NCBI GenBank assembly: GCA_900299355.1
Contig: OMJR01000082.1
Location: 1 to 39,389, forward strand
DNA from: Anaerolineaceae bacterium
Lineage (GTDB): Bacteria > Chloroflexota > Anaerolineae > Anaerolineales > UBA11579
DNA length: 39,389 nt
Direction: 5' to 3'
Position 1 is the first letter of the stretch. Each line of letters starts with the position of its first letter. Below the pieces are notes generated by a model. That model made no database searches, was not told the origin of the DNA, and saw nothing but the letters and a program-made list of their open reading frames with translations. Positions 13,083-28,786 of the stretch are shown piece by piece. Position numbers and translations under genes: made by a program.

Positions 13083-13104
13083 AAGCCCGCTTCCGAGCGG
13101 GCTT
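13083..13104. terminator. Bidirectional hairpin terminator between convergent E1 and response-regulator genes
   Basis: AAGCCCGCT-TCCG-AGCGGGCTT (9-bp stem) followed by ATTTTTTG on the + strand and preceded by an A-rich run. It overlaps the regulator stop codon (13103-13105). Confidence 0.7.
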
Positions 13105-14284
13105 ATTTTTTGCTTTTCTTGGCGGGGGCGGTCAGTTCGGCCGGAAGGTGGGCGATATCGATTTGCGGCTCATCGCAAAACAGCATAGCGCGCTCAATCA
13201 CATTGCGCAGTTCGCGGATGTTGCCGGGCCAATCATGCTTGTTGAGGTCGTCCAAGGCTTTGGGGGTTACGCCTTGAATGTTCAGGCCCTTGCGCGGATT
13301 GAAATAATTGATGAAGAAGGCCACCAACTCGGGAATATCTTCTTTGCGCTTTTTGAGCGAGGGCAAGTCTAACTGCAGCACATTGAGACGGAAGTAGAGG
13401 TCCTCGCGGAATTCCTCGTTCTTAATCATTTCGGGCAGGTTCCGGTTGGAGGCGGCCACCACCTGTACGTCGACCTTAATCTCATTGTTGCCGCCCATGC
13501 GCACGAAGGAACGCTCCTCTAGTGCGCGCAGCAGCTTGGCTTGCATATCCAGCGGCATGGAGGCAATCTCGTCCAGGAAGAGCACGCCATCGTTAGCGTA
13601 CTCAATGCGGCCGACGCGGCGCTTTTCGGCGCCGGTGAAGGCGCCCGGCTCGTAGCCGAAGAGTTCGGACTCAATCATCGTGGCGGGTACCGCAGCGCAG
13701 TTGATAGCCACGAAGGGCTTATCGGCGCGCGGGCCCATGCTGTGAATGGCCTTGGCGACGATTTCCTTGCCGGTGCCGGTCTCGCCGGTGATGATGACGG
13801 AGGTGTTGGTCTGGGCGGCGCGCTCGGCCTGACGCATCAGGTCGGCCATAGCTTTGGTCTTGCCGAGCACATAATCTGTATCGCGTTCGGCGCGCAGCTG
13901 CTGCAGCTCACGCTTCATGGCTACCTGGCTGCCGGCGCGCTCAATCGAGGCTTCCAGGCGCTCGAACTTGATGGGTTTCTGCAGGAAGTCGTGGGCGCCG
14001 TTCTGCATGGCCTCAACCGCCATCTCGATATCGCCGTGGGCGGTAATCATAATGATGGGCGGGCGGTTCATGTCCGCCGCGGTTTCTTCCACGAAGTTGG
14101 TGCCCAGGCCATCCGGCAGCTGCACATCCAGCAACACGATATCGGCGCTATCGGTGGCTAGCACCTTGCGGGCTGACTTCAAGTCGCCAGCCTCCAGCAC
14201 CTCAAAGTCCTTCTTATTGAGGAACTTGGCGATGTTTTCGCGGGCGTTCTGTTCGTCGTCAACGATAAGGATGCTCAGGCTCAT
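13103..14284 (-). CDS. Sigma-54-dependent response regulator (REC + AAA+ bEBP) without a C-terminal HTH domain
   Basis: 393 aa. The REC domain reads ILIVDDE...VLLDVQLPDG. The AAA+ domain has Walker A GETGTGKE, the GAFTGA loop (YEPGAFTGAEKR) and Walker B VLFLDEI. The protein ends 24 residues after ELRNVIERAMLF. Its ATG overlaps the kinase stop (ATGA). Confidence 0.9.
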   Translation of the reverse strand: MSLSILIVDDEQNARENIAKFLNKKDFEVLEAGDLKSARKVLATDSADIVLLDVQLPDGLGTNFVEETAADMNRPPIIMITAHGDIEMAVEAMQNGAHDFLQKPIKFERLEASIERAGSQVAMKRELQQLRAERDTDYVLGKTKAMADLMRQAERAAQTNTSVIITGETGTGKEIVAKAIHSMGPRADKPFVAINCAAVPATMIESELFGYEPGAFTGAEKRRVGRIEYANDGVLFLDEIASMPLDMQAKLLRALEERSFVRMGGNNEIKVDVQVVAASNRNLPEMIKNEEFREDLYFRLNVLQLDLPSLKKRKEDIPELVAFFINYFNPRKGLNIQGVTPKALDDLNKHDWPGNIRELRNVIERAMLFCDEPQIDIAHLPAELTAPAKKSKK

Positions 14285-16251
14285 GCGGGGTCAGGGTCCT
14301 TGTCGGGGTCGGGTGGGGCGGCGGGCAGCTTGATGCGGAAGAGCGTGCCGCCGGGGAAAGATTGCAGGCTGATGTCGCCTTTGTGGGTCATGATGAGGCT
14401 GCGGGTAATCGCCAGGCCCAGGCCGGTGCCCTCTTCTTTCTTGGTGGTGAAGAAGGCGTCGAAGACCACTTCGCGCAAATCCGGCGGGATACCCGGGCCG
14501 GTATCGGACAAATTGATTTCAACCCAGTCTTTGCCATCCTCGCTGATGGGCTTAATCTTGATGGCGATGACGCCGCCATCCTGGTCGTCCATGGCTTGCA
14601 GCGAGTTGGTAATCAGGTTGGTGAAGACTTGGTCCAGCGCGCGGCGGTCACCCATGATGTCGGGCGTGTCCTTGGCGACCTGGATGTGGCTGTCAATGTT
14701 GTTGCGGCCCATGCGCGGCTTCCAGCGCTCCAACTGTTGGCGGCAGAATTCGCCGATATCCATGCGCTCGGGGCTGTAATCGAGGGTGCGTGAAAAGTTC
14801 TGCAGACCCTTGAGGCGATGCTCCAGGCGGTCGCAATCTTCCATCAGCTTGGCCAGCTGTTCCTGAATCGGATCGTCGTCCGCAAAGTCGGTTTGCAGCA
14901 ATTGCAGGCCGGTGCTCATGTTGTTGATGGGGTTGCGCATCTCGTGGGCTACCCGGGCGATCACTTCGCCCAGTTCGGCGCGCTGGCGCAGCTGCTGGCT
15001 GCGAATATGGAAGTCTTCATGCTCGCTCAGGTCGGTAATTAATACCGCCAATTGAGACACGGCTTCGCCCTTGGCGATGGAGGCCACGCGCACATGCGCC
15101 AGGAAGTCGCTGCCGTCGCGGTGGTGCAAATGAATTTCGCCGACGTCCACCAGCTTGTTGTGCTGGGCGACATCTTCCAGGGTGGAAAGCAGCGAACGGG
15201 TGCTAATCAGGATTTCGTTGGCGTGGCGGCCCTGCGCTTCGCGGGCGGTGTAGCCGAGCATGCTTTCGGCGGCTGGATTGATGTCGGTTAGCTGGAGTTG
15301 ATTGTCAAAGAAAATCAAACCGTCCTGCACGTTCTCCTGCAGGCGCTCATTGAGCTGGGCTTGCTCGGCCAGGCGCGCGAACTCGGCTTCCAGGTGGCGG
15401 TTCATCTCGCGGTACATGCCGGCGGTCATGGCCGAGGCGGCCAGGATTTGCGCCAGGGTCAGGATTTCGGCGGGCGGCCCGGCGGCCGCATCGGCGGCCA
15501 CCAGCAAGCCGCGGCTGGGCTGGGTGAGGTCCAGCGGGCTGCTGGCCAGGTAGACCAGTTTGTTGGCGTGGGCTAATTGGTGTAGCGGCGCTTCGACGGC
15601 CTTGCCAGCCTGCCACAGCTTGGGCGTGCGCAGGTGGCCCAGGTCGCGCTCGGCTAGGCGGGTGGGCCAATCCAGGCCGCTGCCGTATACGCTTTCCAGA
15701 CTGAGTTGCCCGGCTTCGCCTTCCACATAGAGCGCTAAATGGGCCGCGCCGGTGAGCAGGTTGCCAGCCTGCAGGATGCGCCGGTAGGTGGAGGCCAGTT
15801 CCTTTTGCTGGGCGGCCAGGTTGAGCATGTGCAGGGCCTCCCAGCGTTCCTTCTGCAGCTTTTGCTGGACGCGCTGCTGCTCGATGCTGGCTGCCGGTTG
15901 AATGCTGAGCGCGCTCCAGCCCTCGCCGCCGTTCAGCGGGCTGACGGCCAGGCGCACGGCCATCGTGCTGCTGTTGCGCTTGACCAATTCCACGGGCAAA
16001 TCCTCAGCAGCGTGGCTGAGCTTACGAATCGCAAAACCCGGCAGCAAGGTGCCGAGTTGGAGTTCGCTTAATTCCTGGCGGGTGTAGGCGCTGAGCTGGG
16101 TCGCCTGGGCGTTGCCCAGCAGCACCCGGCCGCTACGCCCTTCAACCAGCAGGGTAGCGTGGGGCAGCAGGTCCAGCAGGCCTTCCAGTTCCTCCACGCC
16201 CTGGTTGCGTTTCTTGAAGAGCGCCAGGTCGCCAATGTTGGATAGAGCCAT
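14281..16251 (-). CDS. Cytoplasmic PAS/GAF-containing sensor histidine kinase (NtrB-like)
   Basis: 656 aa with no TM segment. It has PAS-like blocks, the H-box VAHEMRNPINN, an N-box (NLITNSLQA) and the G-boxes DTGPGI and GTGLGLAI. Confidence 0.9.
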   Translation of the reverse strand: MALSNIGDLALFKKRNQGVEELEGLLDLLPHATLLVEGRSGRVLLGNAQATQLSAYTRQELSELQLGTLLPGFAIRKLSHAAEDLPVELVKRNSSTMAVRLAVSPLNGGEGWSALSIQPAASIEQQRVQQKLQKERWEALHMLNLAAQQKELASTYRRILQAGNLLTGAAHLALYVEGEAGQLSLESVYGSGLDWPTRLAERDLGHLRTPKLWQAGKAVEAPLHQLAHANKLVYLASSPLDLTQPSRGLLVAADAAAGPPAEILTLAQILAASAMTAGMYREMNRHLEAEFARLAEQAQLNERLQENVQDGLIFFDNQLQLTDINPAAESMLGYTAREAQGRHANEILISTRSLLSTLEDVAQHNKLVDVGEIHLHHRDGSDFLAHVRVASIAKGEAVSQLAVLITDLSEHEDFHIRSQQLRQRAELGEVIARVAHEMRNPINNMSTGLQLLQTDFADDDPIQEQLAKLMEDCDRLEHRLKGLQNFSRTLDYSPERMDIGEFCRQQLERWKPRMGRNNIDSHIQVAKDTPDIMGDRRALDQVFTNLITNSLQAMDDQDGGVIAIKIKPISEDGKDWVEINLSDTGPGIPPDLREVVFDAFFTTKKEEGTGLGLAITRSLIMTHKGDISLQSFPGGTLFRIKLPAAPPDPDKDPDPA

Positions 16252-16254
16252 AAA

Positions 16255-17667
16255 TTAGTTTGCGGTCGCCTTGCGTAGGTGGGCCGGCAGAATGCCCTCC
16301 ATATTACGGTATTTGGCCACGGTGCGCCGCGCAATCTTGTAGCCCTCTTTGGCCAGCAGCTTGGCTAGCTTGGTGTCGCTGAGCGGCTTCTGCTCCGGTT
16401 CGTCCTTGATGATTTCTTTCAGCGCCGTGCGGATGTGCAGGCTGCGGTCGAAGAATTGGGAGAGCGGCACAATCTTATTGTTGGGCAGCTGCACCGATTT
16501 ACCGGAGACGGCGCGCGAAATGGTCGATTCATGCACGCCCAGTTCGTCGGCCAGGCTGGAGCGGGTGAGCGGCTTGATGTGGGCGTTGCCCGCCATGATG
16601 TAGTCGCGCTGTACGACGGCCAGGATTTGCATCAGACGTACAATTGTGTGATTGCGCTGGGCCAGGCATTTAATCAGCAGGGAGGCTTGCTCCAAGTCAA
16701 TTTTCCACTGCTCAGCCTTGTCCCCTGGCGCTTCCTTGAGCGCCTCCTGGAAGAGCGGGTTGACGCGCAGCAGCCCGCGCAGCGGCCAGGTAACCTCGAC
16801 CACCAGGCGGCCACTATCGGTACCTTGCTGCTCGCGGATAATCAGGTCGGGCCGCTGGTAGGTGGCGGGTGCCTCGTTGGTGGCGGTGCGCTGGTTGCCC
16901 CAGTAAGCGCGCGCCGGATAGGGATTGAGATTGCTGGTGATGAAATCGGCAATCTCTTCGGCGACCTTTTTGCTGGTGCCCAGCAATTGGGCTAATTCAC
17001 CGTAATGGCGCTTGCTGAGAAAGGCCATGCCTTCCTGGATGGTGCGCGCGCACAGTTCGGAATCGGGAGCTTCGTCGGCCAGTACTTCCAATTGGGTCAG
17101 CAGCGCCTGGGTGGGGTTGAGCGCGCCGACGCCGATGGGGTCGGCGTGGCGGATGAGGTCGGTGATGGATTCCACCGTGGTGACCGGCACCATGCTGTAG
17201 CGCGCCTCGGCTTGCAGGTCGGCGGTCAACAGGCCGTCCTCGTTGAGGCTGGTCAGCAGGCGGGCGGCGATTTCGAGTTCGTTGGGCTCCAGGTCGGGCG
17301 CAATCTGGCGCAGCACATAGCTGGGCAGGTCTTCGGTATCCGCGTTGGGAATCTCTTCGGAGAGGCCCTGGCCGCTGCCAGCCGAATAGCTGGAGTCGGA
17401 AGGCGCCACAAACACCAACGGTTCCTCGTCCAAACCGGAGGCCGAATTGCATGTGGGGCAGTAGGCGCCGGGGCGCAGGCTGCGTCCGCAGCCGGGACAG
17501 TGACGGCCTTCGACCAGTTCCAGGGCGGGGTTCTCGGCCAGGGCGGCTTCGATTTCCTGGTTCAGTTCCTGGGAATTCAAGCCCAGCAAGCTCATCGTCT
17601 GTGCCAGGTGGGCTGTCGCTTGGGGGCGTTGGGATTGGCTCTGGTAGTAACCTTGCTGTAAGGCCAT
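16255..17667 (-). CDS. rpoN: RNA polymerase sigma-54 factor
   Basis: 470 aa with a Gln-rich region I and a C-terminal HTH. The RpoN box ARRTVAKYR is present (GYKIARRTVAKYRNMEGILP). AAGGAG lies 6 nt upstream of the ATG. The stop is 3 nt before the kinase ATG. Confidence 0.92.
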   Translation of the reverse strand: MALQQGYYQSQSQRPQATAHLAQTMSLLGLNSQELNQEIEAALAENPALELVEGRHCPGCGRSLRPGAYCPTCNSASGLDEEPLVFVAPSDSSYSAGSGQGLSEEIPNADTEDLPSYVLRQIAPDLEPNELEIAARLLTSLNEDGLLTADLQAEARYSMVPVTTVESITDLIRHADPIGVGALNPTQALLTQLEVLADEAPDSELCARTIQEGMAFLSKRHYGELAQLLGTSKKVAEEIADFITSNLNPYPARAYWGNQRTATNEAPATYQRPDLIIREQQGTDSGRLVVEVTWPLRGLLRVNPLFQEALKEAPGDKAEQWKIDLEQASLLIKCLAQRNHTIVRLMQILAVVQRDYIMAGNAHIKPLTRSSLADELGVHESTISRAVSGKSVQLPNNKIVPLSQFFDRSLHIRTALKEIIKDEPEQKPLSDTKLAKLLAKEGYKIARRTVAKYRNMEGILPAHLRKATAN

Positions 17668-17687
17668 GGCGGCTCCTTAGTGGGGCG

Positions 17688-17727
17688 ATTATAGGGATAC
17701 ATTCACTATGGTGCAAGTTCTATGCCA
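17688..17727 (-). promoter_or_regulatory. Overlapping promoter signatures upstream of rpoN: sigma-54 -24/-12 (TGGCAT-N5-TTGCA) and sigma-70 (TTGCAC-N17-TATAAT)
   Basis: The minus strand reads CCTGGCATAGAACTTGCACCATAGTGAATGTATCCCTATAATCGCCCCACTAAGGAGCCGCCATG. The -24/-12 element is at 17712-17727, the -35 at 17711-17716 and the -10 at 17688-17693. Confidence 0.5.
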
Positions 17728-17754
17728 GGCCAATTTTGGTAGAATTCCCCGCCA

Positions 17755-19134
17755 ATGACGATGCAAGAACAATACCTGACTGTGGTGGGCGGCGGCCTGG
17801 CCGGCAGCGAAGCCGCCTGGCAAGCGGCCGAACGCGGCCTGTCTGTGCGCCTGTACGAGATGCGCCCCAAGCTGGAAACCGGCGCGCACGTGACCGGCGA
17901 CTTGGCCGAATTGGTGTGCTCCAATTCGCTGGGCTCGGACCTGCCCGACCGCGCCTCGGGCTTGCTGAAGAACGAGTTGCGCCGGATGGTCTCGCTGCTG
18001 GTGCGCCTAGCCGAGGAGACCGCCGTGCCCGCCGGTGGGGCGCTGGCAGTGGACCGCGAGGGCTTTGCCGCCGCGGTAACCCGGGAACTGGAGACACACC
18101 CCCGCATTGAGATTATTCGTGAGGAGATGCCCAACATCCCCGATGGCCTGGCCGTGATTGCTTCCGGACCGCTGACCTCGTCCAAATTGTCGCAAGCGAT
18201 AGCCGCCCTCAGCGGTGAGCAGCACCTCTACTTTTTTGATGCGATTTCGCCGATTGTCAGCCTCGAATCGGTGGACATGGATATCGCCTACCGCGCTTCG
18301 CGCTATGACCGCGGCGAGGAAGAGCAGGGCGATTACATCAATTGCCCGATGACCAAGGATGAATACGAAACCTTTGTAAATGCCTTGCTGGAGGCCGAGC
18401 GCATTGAGCTAAAGTCCTTTGAGCGCGAACTGGAGCAGGGGGTGCGCGCCGGCGCGCATACCTTCTTCGAGGGCTGCCTGCCGGTCGAAATCATCGCCGG
18501 GCGCGGTTTCGACTCGCTGGCCTACGGCCCCATGCGCCCGGTGGGCTTGATTGACCCGCGTAACGGCAAGCGGCCTTATGCGGTGGTGCAGCTACGCCAG
18601 GATAATTTGGCTGGCACGCTGTACAACCTGGTCGGCTTCCAGACCAACCTAACTTTTCCCGAGCAGCGCCGGGTGCTGCGGCTGATTCCCGGGCTGGCGA
18701 ACGCGCGCTTTGAGCGTTACGGCCAGATGCACCGCAACACCTTTATTCATGCGCCCAAGCTGCTGCGGCCCACGCTACAGTTCCACGAGCGGGATGGCCT
18801 GTTCTTTGCGGGTCAAATTACCGGGGTGGAGGGCTATGTGAGCAACATGGCGACTGGCCTGTTGGCGGGCCTGAACGCCGCTCGCATGGCGGCTGGTGAG
18901 GCTCCGCTGGAGCTTCCCGGCACGACCATGCTGGGCGCGCTATGCCAATACGTGACCCACGCCGATGAGGCCGATTTCCAGCCGATGAAAGCCAACTTTG
19001 GCATTATGCCGCCGCTACAAACGGATAAGAAGCTGGGCCGCCGCCAACGGGCGGCCGCCTACGCCGAGCGCGCTCTGGCCGACCTGGATGCCTATCTGGC
19101 TGAACAGGCCGTTTTGACCCCGGTTACCGCGTAA
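17755..19134 (+). CDS. trmFO: Methylenetetrahydrofolate--tRNA-(uracil54-C5)-methyltransferase TrmFO
   Basis: 459 aa. The N-terminal FAD fold reads [31 protein letters not shown], followed by CSNSLG and later GQITGVEGY blocks, colinear with TrmFO/Gid. Confidence 0.92.
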
Positions 19135-27597: not shown

Positions 27598-28786
27598 GGC
27601 GGTCCGCTTTCAGCTCGCTGGCGTGCCGCACCACATCCGGCCCGAAGCGCTGGTTGAGCAGCTTGAGCGCTTGCTCGAGTTGGTCTTGTTTGGCGGATTC
27701 GCGCGGGTCCCAATCCCAGAGGCTCATTTGGCGGCTGGGCGGCTCCAATCCGTGCACGCCCACGCCGATTAGGCGTATTAGCCGGCGGTTCTTCCAATTC
27801 TGGTCGAGCAGCTTGTTGGCGGCGTGCTCAATCAAGTCAGCCTGGTCGGTGGCTTCCTGCAAGGTGAGCTGGCGGGTGATGGTGGTGAAGTCGCTCCAGC
27901 GCAGCTTGAGCTGCACCGATTTGGCGAAGAGTTCCAGCTTTTTAAGCCGCTGGCTGACGGAAAGGCTCTGTTTTTTGAGGGTTTCGCGCAACTGGCGTGG
28001 GTTGTTGGTGTCTTCGCGGTAGGTGACTTCCTGGCTGACCGACTTGGTTTCGTGGCTGAGGTGGATCGGGCTGTTGTCAATGCCTTGGGCGCGGCGGTGC
28101 AGCGCGCGGCCGTGTTCGCCAAAGCGGCGTTCCAATTCGGCCAACGGGTAGGCGGCGATGTCGCCGATGGTATGCAGCCGCAATTCGGCCAGTTTTTCGG
28201 CGGTCTTGGGGCCGACGCCCCACAGCGCTTCGGTGGGCAGCGGCGCCAGAAAGGCGGCTTCCTCGCCGGGCGGCACTACCTGGATTGCATTGGGATAGGT
28301 GTTGGTTTGGCTGCTGGCTTTGCCGACATTGGTTGCAATTTTGGCGACCAGCTTGTTGGTGGCGACCCCCAGCGAACTGGGCAGCCCTAGCTCATCACGG
28401 ATGCGCGCCTGCATGTCGCGGGCATATTCCACCGCATCCTTGGGCAGATCGGTGACCTCAATAAATGCTTCATCAATTGAAATTGCCTGCACCAATTCAC
28501 TGTAGCTCTGCATGATGGCGCGGGCCTTGCACGAATACTCGACATAGTTGCGGTAGGAATGGCGCACAATCTGCAGGTCGGGGCAGATGCGCACCGCGCG
28601 TGACATCGGCATGGCGGAGTGCACGCCAAACTTGCGCGCGGCATAGGAACAGGAGGCGACCACGCCGCGGCCCTGGGGTGAACCGCCCACCGCGAAGGGC
28701 TTACCGCGCAGTGATGGATCGTGGAGTTCCTCCACGGCGCAGAAGAAAGCATCCAGGTCCAAATGTAGAATTTTGCGCATAGCCAT
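27587..28786 (-). CDS. dinB: DNA polymerase IV (Y-family translesion polymerase)
   Basis: 399 aa with the blocks ILHLDLDAFFCAVEE and SIDEAFIEVT, plus the little-finger region, colinear with DinB. Confidence 0.93.
   Translation of the reverse strand: MAMRKILHLDLDAFFCAVEELHDPSLRGKPFAVGGSPQGRGVVASCSYAARKFGVHSAMPMSRAVRICPDLQIVRHSYRNYVEYSCKARAIMQSYSELVQAISIDEAFIEVTDLPKDAVEYARDMQARIRDELGLPSSLGVATNKLVAKIATNVGKASSQTNTYPNAIQVVPPGEEAAFLAPLPTEALWGVGPKTAEKLAELRLHTIGDIAAYPLAELERRFGEHGRALHRRAQGIDNSPIHLSHETKSVSQEVTYREDTNNPRQLRETLKKQSLSVSQRLKKLELFAKSVQLKLRWSDFTTITRQLTLQEATDQADLIEHAANKLLDQNWKNRRLIRLIGVGVHGLEPPSRQMSLWDWDPRESAKQDQLEQALKLLNQRFGPDVVRHASELKADRHAQ

What the first reader, a model, noticed from the sequence alone, without database searches (positions are those of the whole stretch)
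17688..17727. Near-consensus -24/-12 sigma-54 element in front of rpoN, overlapping a sigma-70-type promoter
**Seen in the sequence:**
- The minus strand reads CC-TGGCAT-AGAAC-TTGCA-CCATAGTGAATGTATCCC-TATAAT-CGCCCCACT-AAGGAG-CCGCC-ATG.
- TGGCAT-N5-TTGCA matches TGGCAC-N5-TTGCW at 10 of 11 specified positions, with the exact GG-N10-GC spacing.
- It is the only such match I found in intergenic DNA of this window.
- The same TTGCAC hexamer is followed after 17 nt by a perfect TATAAT, so a sigma-70 promoter is equally readable.

**Inference:** if the -24/-12 element is used, sigma-54 would drive its own operon, including its kinase and activator. That is a positive-feedback switch, with the sigma-70 promoter supplying basal expression. 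The two holoenzymes would compete for overlapping DNA.
Basis: partly seen in the sequence, partly recalled or inferred. Interest (0 to 1): 0.6.

Follow-up and report, generated by a model that had tools for sequence, protein, structure and literature searches.

The report
Fused sigma-54/sigma-70 promoter before rpoN
The gene for the alternative sigma factor sigma-54, in one operon with its sensor kinase and its only activator, sits behind a deeply conserved sigma-54 promoter fused to an ordinary housekeeping promoter, which most likely makes a self-amplifying switch with a built-in basal supply.

Summary
On the minus strand, TGGCAT-N5-TTGCA (17727-17712) shares its TTGCA with TTGCAC-17 nt-TATAAT (17716-17688), 21 nt before the rpoN ATG (17667).

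Within the window the match is no better than chance (2 found, 1.98 expected). Comparative evidence settles it:
- The same element lies upstream of rpoN in 37 of 42 distinct Anaerolineales (Chloroflexota) loci. The background in those loci is 1 hit in 440,072 positions.
- Motif positions are invariant and the flanks are scrambled.
- In 27 rows a TATAAT/TATACT box keeps a fixed offset of 17-18 nt after TTGCA. In other lineages it moves while the sigma-54 element stays.

The genome holds one rpoN and one true activator, the one in this operon. That activator has an intact GAFTGA motif and no DNA-binding domain.

Best reading: a real sigma-54 promoter gives positive feedback on rpoN, kinase and activator, and the sigma-70 promoter gives basal expression. 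The two RNA polymerase forms cannot bind together, so unactivated sigma-54 polymerase probably also damps the basal promoter. Which way the regulation runs has not been tested.

Closest precedents are the R. capsulatus nifU2-rpoN superoperon and the overlapping glmY promoters. This scan has already reported the self-driven cassette in other Anaerolineales genomes. The fused sigma-70 promoter is what this report adds.

The parts
17722..17727 (-). -24 element TGGCAT of the sigma-54 promoter
   Evidence: TGGCA carries 1.7-2 bits per position and position 6 is C or T, across 37 orthologous loci.
17712..17716 (-). -12 element TTGCA. With C17711 it also forms the -35-like hexamer TTGCAC of the sigma-70 promoter.
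   Evidence: CTTGCA carries 1.7-2 bits per position. The offset to the -10 box is fixed at 17-18 nt in 27 rows.
17688..17693 (-). -10 box TATAAT of the sigma-70-type promoter; predicted start near A17681
   Evidence: TATAAT or TATACT is present downstream of the sigma-54 element in nearly all relatives.
17700..17702 (-). Predicted sigma-54 transcription start, 12 nt after C17713 of the GC dinucleotide
   Evidence: Inferred from the standard -24/-12 geometry. Not measured.
17673..17678 (-). Shine-Dalgarno AAGGAG of rpoN
16255..17667 (-). rpoN (sigma-54, 470 aa), with activator-interacting, core-binding and DNA-binding domains and the RpoN box ARRTVAKYR
   Evidence: It is the only rpoN match in the genome.
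14281..16251 (-). Soluble PAS-HisKA-HATPase sensor kinase (656 aa), starting 3 nt after the rpoN stop
   Evidence: No hydrophobic segment was found.
13103..14284 (-). REC-AAA+ sigma-54 activator (393 aa) with GAFTGA, Walker A and B motifs and no DNA-binding domain; the genome's only true bEBP
   Evidence: Relatives' copies are 388-395 aa and end the same way.
17737..17745 (+). Extended -10 TGGTAGAAT of the divergent trmFO-type gene, back-to-back with the sigma-54 site
   Evidence: The motif is conserved in relatives, where it reads ATTCTACCAAA on the rpoN strand.
17755..19134 (+). Divergent GIDA-family (TrmFO-type) gene
   Evidence: It is syntenic in most relatives.

Best explanation
The 40-bp stretch is a composite promoter for the rpoN-kinase-activator operon. 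A genuine sigma-54 (-24/-12) promoter is fused to a housekeeping sigma-70-type promoter, and TTGCA serves both as the -12 element and as the -35 element. The sigma-70 promoter (start near 17681) provides a basal supply of sigma-54, kinase and activator. When the soluble PAS kinase phosphorylates the activator, the activator remodels sigma-54 polymerase from solution, because it has no DNA-binding domain. This happens at every closed complex, including the one on its own operon (start near 17701). The result is positive feedback on all three components. Because the two promoters share bases, only one polymerase form can occupy the site at a time. Unactivated sigma-54 polymerase parked there should therefore damp the basal promoter. 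Shown here: the site, its conservation, the operon, the single activator without a DNA-binding domain, and the fixed spacing. Inferred: actual use of either start site, the direction of regulation, and occlusion.
For: The sequence is as described.

Conservation:
- 37 of 42 distinct Anaerolineales rpoN loci carry [TC]GGCA[CT]-N5-T[TA]GCA within 150 nt upstream, always pointing at rpoN. Elsewhere in the same loci there is 1 hit in 440,072 positions. Motif positions carry about 2 bits and flanks 0-0.5 bits.
- The element stays with rpoN where trmFO is absent or more than 200 nt away.

Evidence that it is a promoter in its own right:
- In locus L018 the sigma-70 promoter lies about 50 nt further downstream, yet the sigma-54 element is retained.
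- In a basal clade the element sits 6-9 nt upstream of a separate TTGACx-17-TATACT promoter.
- 8 of 21 rpoN loci from other Chloroflexota classes have a site of at least 10 of 11, without a -10 box at these offsets.

Evidence for the sigma-70 half:
- TATAAT or TATACT lies at offset 17-18 after TTGCA in 27 rows although the spacer sequence varies.
- It persists where the -24 half is lost (L027/28, L052-54).

Machinery:
- Intact sigma-54 with its RpoN box.
- One true bEBP in this genome and in 5 relatives, always next to rpoN.
- GAFTGA is intact and there is no HTH domain.
- Other canonical sites in the genome lack a fused TATAAT.

Literature:
- bEBPs without a DNA-binding domain activate closed complexes at any promoter (PMC3844500).
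- R. capsulatus rpoN has a weak constitutive promoter plus a NifA-RpoN-activated promoter (PMC6925177).
Against: There are no transcript, binding or expression data. The single-window match is at chance level. TTGCAC is a weak -35 element (3 of 6). Five Anaerolineales loci manage without a canonical -24 half, so the sigma-54 input is dispensable in some lineages. Negative rpoN autoregulation is documented in other bacteria (PMC3538637), and sigma-54 can repress overlapping sigma-70 promoters (PMC4551910). The near-universal overlap of the two promoters is what a pure operator model would also predict. The related loci share ancestry, so the counts are not independent events.
Confidence: 0.6

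Rival explanations
1. The site acts as an operator only. It binds sigma-54 polymerase but is never productively fired. Its role is negative autoregulation: sigma-54 polymerase parked on TTGCA blocks the sigma-70 -35 element and holds rpoN-kinase-activator expression at a set level.
For: The -12 and -35 elements share bases, or abut within 6-9 nt, in nearly all lineages. Negative rpoN autoregulation is reported for R. leguminosarum (PMC3538637). Sigma-54 competes with sigma-70 polymerase at overlapping sites in vitro (argT, chaC, mdfA, patA; PMC4551910).
Against: The only activator has no DNA-binding domain, so it should fire any correctly oriented closed complex (PMC3844500). Orientation is towards rpoN in all 37 loci. 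L018 keeps the element without overlap with the -10 box. Other Chloroflexota classes have stand-alone sigma-54 sites before rpoN. An operator would not need orientation or promoter-like distance to the ATG.
Confidence: 0.2
2. The conserved TGGCA-N5-TTGCA is an upstream or -35 extension of the sigma-70 promoter, or the site of another DNA-binding protein, and has nothing to do with sigma-54.
For: TTGCA does behave as the -35 element (fixed spacing). The element also overlaps the footprint expected for the divergent trmFO promoter.
Against: The conserved positions are exactly those of the sigma-54 consensus, with GG-N10-GC spacing. The element is retained when the -10 box shifts to offsets 5-10, 25-32 or 70, where it cannot be a -35 element. 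The same consensus precedes other genes in the genome and in relatives without any TATAAT box. It stays with rpoN in loci that lack trmFO. The sequence is not palindromic.
Confidence: 0.05
3. The element is a chance match with no function.
For: Within the window, 2 matches were found against 1.98 expected.
Against: 37 of 42 orthologous loci carry it, against about 0.0003 expected per locus, and the motif is invariant amid saturated flanks.
Confidence: 0.02

Closest known systems
Rhodobacter capsulatus nifU2-rpoN superoperon (Cullen et al. 1994, as described in PMC6925177)
   Same: An rpoN gene has a weak constitutive promoter for basal expression plus a sigma-54- and activator-dependent promoter that amplifies it. 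This is the same positive-feedback logic with a basal seed.
   Different: There the two promoters are separated by the nifU2 gene, the activator NifA has a DNA-binding domain and is encoded elsewhere, and the circuit serves nitrogen fixation. Here the promoters are fused within 40 bp, and the operon itself encodes the kinase and the genome's only activator, which has no DNA-binding domain.
Overlapping sigma-54/sigma-70 promoters of glmY and glmZ in Enterobacteriaceae (PMC3045617; Reichenbach et al. 2009, cited therein)
   Same: A sigma-54 and a sigma-70 promoter overlap physically in front of one gene, giving dual control. The downstream two-component system (GlrK/GlrR) provides the sigma-54 input.
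   Different: In glmY both promoters start at the same nucleotide. Here the predicted starts are about 20 nt apart, and the -12 element doubles as the -35 element. GlrR binds upstream sites. The product there is a small RNA, not sigma-54 itself.
NifA-activated prxS-rpoN2 of Rhizobium etli and Mesorhizobium loti, and negatively autoregulated rpoN of R. leguminosarum (PMC3538637)
   Same: Sigma-54 controls transcription of an rpoN gene, positively in one case and negatively in the other.
   Different: In the positive cases rpoN2 is a second copy that depends on rpoN1. Here the single rpoN must be seeded by the sigma-70 promoter. The mechanism of the negative case was not read here.
Chlamydia CtcB-CtcC-sigma-54 (PMC7482065) and Helicobacter FlgS-FlgR-sigma-54
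   Same: A single two-component pair whose activator lacks a DNA-binding domain drives the whole sigma-54 regulon from solution.
   Different: In Chlamydia, rpoN transcript levels were relatively constant. From memory, untested here: rpoN is not in one operon with ctcB/ctcC. No self-promoter was reported there.
E. coli glnALG with glnAp1 (sigma-70) and glnAp2 (sigma-54) (established knowledge; non-overlapping promoters noted in PMC3844500)
   Same: [quoted passage not shown]
   Different: The promoters do not overlap, NtrC binds enhancers, and rpoN is not part of the operon.

Membership tests
Sigma-54-dependent (-24/-12) promoter | GG and GC dinucleotides exactly 10 nt apart within TGGCAC-N5-TTGCW | tested here: met
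   10 of 11 specified positions with GG-N10-GC intact.
Sigma-54-dependent (-24/-12) promoter | Upstream of a gene, oriented towards it, at promoter distance | tested here: met
   The element starts 60 nt before the rpoN ATG on the same strand. The same holds in all 37 loci that carry it, at 40-118 nt.
Sigma-54-dependent (-24/-12) promoter | Conservation at orthologous positions beyond the background level | tested here: met
   37 of 42 loci, against 1 hit in 440,072 background positions.
Sigma-54-dependent (-24/-12) promoter | The genome encodes sigma-54 with an RpoN box and a bEBP with GAFTGA | tested here: met
Sigma-54-dependent (-24/-12) promoter | Upstream activator (enhancer) sites | not tested
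   Not searched for. None is expected, because the only bEBP has no DNA-binding domain, and only 27 bp separate the element from the divergent ATG.
Sigma-54-dependent (-24/-12) promoter | Activator- and sigma-54-dependent transcript starting about 12 nt after the GC | not testable with these tools
   Needs 5'-end mapping or in vitro transcription.
Sigma-70-type (-35/-10) promoter | -10 hexamer close to TATAAT | tested here: met
   TATAAT matches 6 of 6. TATAAT or TATACT is present in relatives.
Sigma-70-type (-35/-10) promoter | -35 hexamer close to TTGACA, 16-18 nt upstream | tested here: inconclusive
   The spacing is 17 nt, but TTGCAC matches only 3 of 6 positions and the tool's scan did not list it. 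The fixed spacing in 27 rows argues that it is used.
Sigma-70-type (-35/-10) promoter | Transcript starting about 7 nt after the -10 box | not testable with these tools
   Needs 5'-end mapping.
glmY-type perfectly overlapping sigma-54/sigma-70 promoters | Both promoters initiate at the same nucleotide | tested here: not met
   The predicted starts, near 17701 and near 17681, are about 20 nt apart. This follows from the geometry. The definition is from PMC3045617.
Autoactivated rpoN operon (R. capsulatus nifU2-rpoN type) | A constitutive promoter plus a sigma-54/bEBP-dependent promoter upstream of rpoN | tested here: inconclusive
   Both promoter types are present and conserved at the sequence level. 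Their activity was not measured.

The most novel reading that the evidence does not exclude
The shared TTGCA makes the direction of autoregulation depend on the activator's state. Without signal, sigma-54 polymerase parks on its own promoter and throttles the sigma-70 start (negative feedback, a low set-point). With signal, the activator, which has no DNA-binding domain, fires the same complexes (positive feedback). This would give an all-or-none switch in filamentous Anaerolineales that also turns on a second FtsZ paralog and cell-wall genes.
Probability: 0.3. Interest if true: 0.7.

Novelty: new variant of a known kind. Interest (0 to 1): 0.5.

Why it matters
Sigma-54 is usually described as constitutively made, with all regulation placed on its activators. 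Here, across a whole order of Chloroflexota, the sigma factor, its sensor and its only activator form one transcription unit behind their own promoter type. A housekeeping promoter is welded onto it, so that the -12 and -35 elements are the same bases. This compact module can be tested directly for how a sigma factor bootstraps and limits its own synthesis. It also sits at the top of a small regulon of cell-wall genes and a second FtsZ, in a poorly studied group that is abundant in the environment. If the switch in the direction of autoregulation holds, it would be a clean natural case of competition between two RNA polymerase forms used as a regulatory device.

Tried and rejected
- **Window-level statistics:** the match is not significant by itself.
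- **'Natural negative control' idea:** loci L027/L028 lack both the element and a detectable kinase. I first read this as showing that the element tracks the operon. That was wrong: their genomes still have their single bEBP 2.3 kb downstream of rpoN, so the operon is probably intact and the kinase merely diverged. Their rpoN sits on a very long branch with odd composition.
- **Element serves trmFO rather than rpoN:** rejected. It stays at the same distance from rpoN where trmFO is absent or more than 200 nt away.
- **Known RNA element or structured leader:** there is no Rfam match at E up to 1. The leader fold is no better than shuffles (z = 0.69).
- **Literature on sigma-54 in Chloroflexi:** five papers hold the terms. 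Only the one I opened (PMC3162934) was checked for rpoN autoregulation, and it does not mention it.
- **Not attempted:** no tool used here could separate positive from negative autoregulation.

Full report
**Observation**

One search confirms the minus-strand reading.
- TGGCAT lies at 17727-17722, the spacer is AGAAC, and TTGCA lies at 17716-17712.
- TTGCAC (17716-17711) is followed by a 17-nt spacer and TATAAT (17693-17688).
- AAGGAG is at 17678-17673 and the ATG at 17667.

Pfam identifies four genes:
- rpoN at 16255-17667 (activator-interacting, core-binding and DNA-binding domains);
- a PAS-HisKA-HATPase kinase at 14281-16251;
- a REC-AAA+(Sigma54_activat)-lid protein at 13103-14284 with no HTH domain;
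- a divergent GIDA/TrmFO-type gene at 17755-19134.

The intergenic region is 87 bp.

With at most one mismatch, the window holds 2 matches to TGGCAC-N5-TTGCW against 1.98 expected. The other match (28516-28531) lies antisense inside an ORF. The consensus scan did not list the sigma-70 promoter, because TTGCAC matches TTGACA at only 3 of 6 positions. The description is therefore right, but on its own it is not statistically remarkable.

**Organism and machinery**

Record titles of related contigs place the genome in Chloroflexota, order Anaerolineales.

The 2.1-Mb assembly is 90% complete. It has one rpoN and one true sigma-54 activator, the one in this operon. The only other PF00158 match scores 27 bits.

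The activator has a REC domain (the likely phospho-acceptor aspartate is in LLDVQLPDG), Walker A and B motifs and GAFTGA. It ends 24 residues after the AAA+ lid. Sigma-54 has region I, the HTH and the RpoN box ARRTVAKYR. The kinase has no hydrophobic segment, so it is soluble.

Five relatives also have exactly one high-scoring bEBP, each within 3 kb downstream of rpoN. Ten relatives' activators are 388-395 aa and end the same way.

**Conservation**

I fetched rpoN loci from 40 relatives and 10 named metagenome-assembled genomes. This gave 42 distinct Anaerolineales loci.
- 37 loci carry [TC]GGCA[CT]-N5-T[TA]GCA within 150 nt upstream of rpoN, on the rpoN strand.
- Everywhere else in those loci, on both strands, there is 1 hit in 440,072 positions. 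That is about 0.0003 expected per upstream region.
- Anchored on the motif, TGGCA and CTTGCA carry 1.7-2.0 bits per position, while flanking positions carry 0-0.5 bits. The flanks have diverged to saturation and the motif has not.
- The arrangement trmFO <-> rpoN-kinase(-activator) is syntenic across the order. The element nevertheless stays at 40-118 nt from the rpoN ATG in loci where trmFO is absent or more than 200 nt away. It therefore belongs to rpoN.

**The sigma-70 half**

- In 27 rows, spanning several families, TATAAT or TATACT lies 17-18 nt after TTGCA although the spacer sequence varies. That is the optimal spacing if TTGCAN is the -35 hexamer, so TTGCA does double duty.
- In a basal clade (L022, L024-L026, L029, L030) the sigma-54 element lies 6-9 nt upstream of a separate TTGACx-17-TATACT-like promoter.
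- In L014-L016 the -10 box lies only 5-10 nt after TTGCA.
- In L018 a TTGGAT-16-TATAAT promoter lies about 50 nt further downstream.

So the sigma-54 element is the fixed point and the sigma-70 promoter moves around it. The sigma-70 promoter is always downstream of the element, and almost always within the expected footprint of sigma-54 polymerase.

The -24 half is lost in L027/L028, whose rpoN sits on a very long branch. It has degenerated to AGGTATAAT-type sequences in L052-L054. In both cases a sigma-70-type promoter remains.

Other sigma-54 sites in this genome and in relatives have no TATAAT box at that offset. The fusion is therefore specific to rpoN.

**Beyond the order**

Of 21 rpoN loci from other Chloroflexota classes, 8 have a site of at least 10 of 11 upstream of rpoN, without a -10 box at these offsets. 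Two of these 21 loci (L064 from G219, L074 from G077) come from unpublished genomes. Without them the count is 7 of 19, and L067 (G052) carries the same site as L074. Three proteobacterial (Methylophilaceae) rpoN loci that could be tested had none.

**Mechanism**

- *Shown:* a conserved, correctly oriented sigma-54 site, a conserved sigma-70-type promoter sharing its bases, an operon of sigma factor, kinase and activator, and a single activator without a DNA-binding domain.
- *From the literature:* such activators engage closed complexes at any promoter from solution (PMC3844500; CtcC in PMC7482065).
- *Inferred:* when the activator is phosphorylated, the closed complex on 17712-17727 is fired like any other (start near 17701), giving positive feedback on all three components. 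The sigma-70 promoter (start near 17681) seeds the system, which a single-copy rpoN behind a sigma-54 promoter would need.
- *Also inferred:* because the -12 and -35 elements are the same bases, the two polymerase forms exclude each other. Unactivated sigma-54 polymerase should then lower basal transcription, as shown in vitro for argT, chaC, mdfA and patA (PMC4551910).

Arguments that the site is a promoter and not only an operator:
- constant orientation towards rpoN;
- retention in L018 without overlap with the -10 box;
- stand-alone sites in other classes;
- the promiscuity of an activator that has no DNA-binding domain.

I put the full dual-promoter, positive-feedback reading at 0.6 and the operator-only reading at 0.2. 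That sigma-54 binds the site at all I put at about 0.9.

**Comparison with known systems**

- The logic matches the R. capsulatus nifU2-rpoN superoperon: a weak constitutive promoter plus a NifA-RpoN-activated promoter (PMC6925177). It also matches the NifA-activated prxS-rpoN2 operon (PMC3538637).
- The architecture resembles the overlapping glmY/glmZ promoters (PMC3045617). It fails their defining feature of a shared start site.
- Negative rpoN autoregulation is also known (PMC3538637).
- The combination found here is a new variant rather than a new kind. It consists of a -12 element doubling as a -35 element, a single rpoN, and the kinase and the sole activator (lacking a DNA-binding domain) in the same operon, all conserved across an order.
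- A text search for Chloroflexi, sigma-54 and rpoN returned five papers. I opened one (PMC3162934), which does not mention rpoN autoregulation; the other four were not read.

**Earlier scan notes**

One search shows that follow-up agents have already reported the self-driven sigma-54 cassette, with conserved sites before ftsZ, in other Anaerolineales genomes. I reached the conservation and ftsZ observations independently. What this finding adds is the fused sigma-70 promoter and its evolutionary behaviour.

**Side results**

Candidate regulon members with sites of at least 10 of 11 in intergenic, correctly oriented positions include:
- an FtsZ and the 503-aa gene before it;
- an LCP (LytR_cpsA_psr) protein;
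- an Amidase_3 protein;
- a C39-LysM peptidase;
- DUF4388, HD, SnoaL_2, Ig-like and AI-2E-transporter proteins;
- small proteins of unknown function.

The FtsZ behind the sigma-54 sites is a second paralog, 48% identical to the FtsZ in the murB-ddl-ftsQ-ftsA-ftsZ cluster on another contig. Nearly all relatives have both. The site before the paralog reaches at least 10 of 11 within 200 nt in 13 of 30 relatives.

**Limits**

Everything about activity is inferred from sequence. The related loci share ancestry, so counts overstate the number of independent events. The argument rests on invariant motif positions amid diverged flanks and on the rearrangements around the motif. The tree was built with FastTree, has several open nodes and carries a long-branch warning.

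Noticed in passing
window 17737-17757 (+): The divergent trmFO-type gene has a conserved extended -10 box, TGGTAGAAT, only 9 nt before its ATG (6-7 nt in some relatives). This suggests a leaderless or nearly leaderless mRNA. The expected polymerase footprint overlaps the rpoN promoters back-to-back, so three promoters share 87 bp.
   Followed up: partly
G000 C140:5927-7135 (L084:1-1209, -) and C36:35042-36214 (L118:4543-5715, +): The genome has two FtsZ genes. The one preceded by sigma-54 sites is a second paralog, 48% identical to the other and not in the murB-ddl-ftsQ-ftsA-ftsZ cluster. Nearly all 41 relatives searched show two matches. Earlier scan reports call the sigma-54-driven gene simply ftsZ.
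   Followed up: partly
G000 contigs C62, C29, C130, C151, C109, C129, C99, C36, C37, C56/C108 (loci L077-L087): The candidate sigma-54 regulon has a cell-wall flavour. Members are an LCP (LytR_cpsA_psr) protein, Amidase_3, a C39-LysM peptidase, DUF4388, HD, SnoaL_2, an Ig-like protein, an AI-2E transporter and several small unknowns. None has a fused TATAAT box.
   Followed up: partly
window 17449-17499 (-), RpoN residues 57-73: RpoN carries a CxxC-x9-CxxC motif just after region I (CPGCGRSLRPGAYCPTC). I did not examine it.
   Followed up: no
L052-L054 (G266, G226, G210), upstream of rpoN: In one genus the -24 half reads AGGTATA(A/C)T-N-CTTGCA. GG-N10-GC is kept, but a TATAAT or TATACT box now overlaps the -24 position. 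This is a different kind of sigma-54/sigma-70 overlap, or a decaying site.
   Followed up: no
L027, L028 (G013, G002), upstream of rpoN: These two genomes have lost the -24 half (CAGAAT-N5-TTGC remains) but keep TTGCGC-16-TATAAT. Their rpoN sits on a very long branch (1.29 changes per site) with odd composition, which may mean altered promoter specificity.
   Followed up: no
motif-anchored alignment of 37 loci; window C17710: The second base after TTGCA is a conserved C (1.4 bits). It is not part of the usual sigma-54 or -35 consensus as I know it.
   Followed up: no
L060, L061, L066, L067, L073, L074, L076 (other Chloroflexota classes): Sites that match the sigma-54 consensus fully or nearly fully lie upstream of rpoN in other classes of the phylum, some in genomes with 2-4 rpoN copies. 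L067 and L074 have two sites in tandem. L074 is from an unpublished genome (G077).
   Followed up: partly
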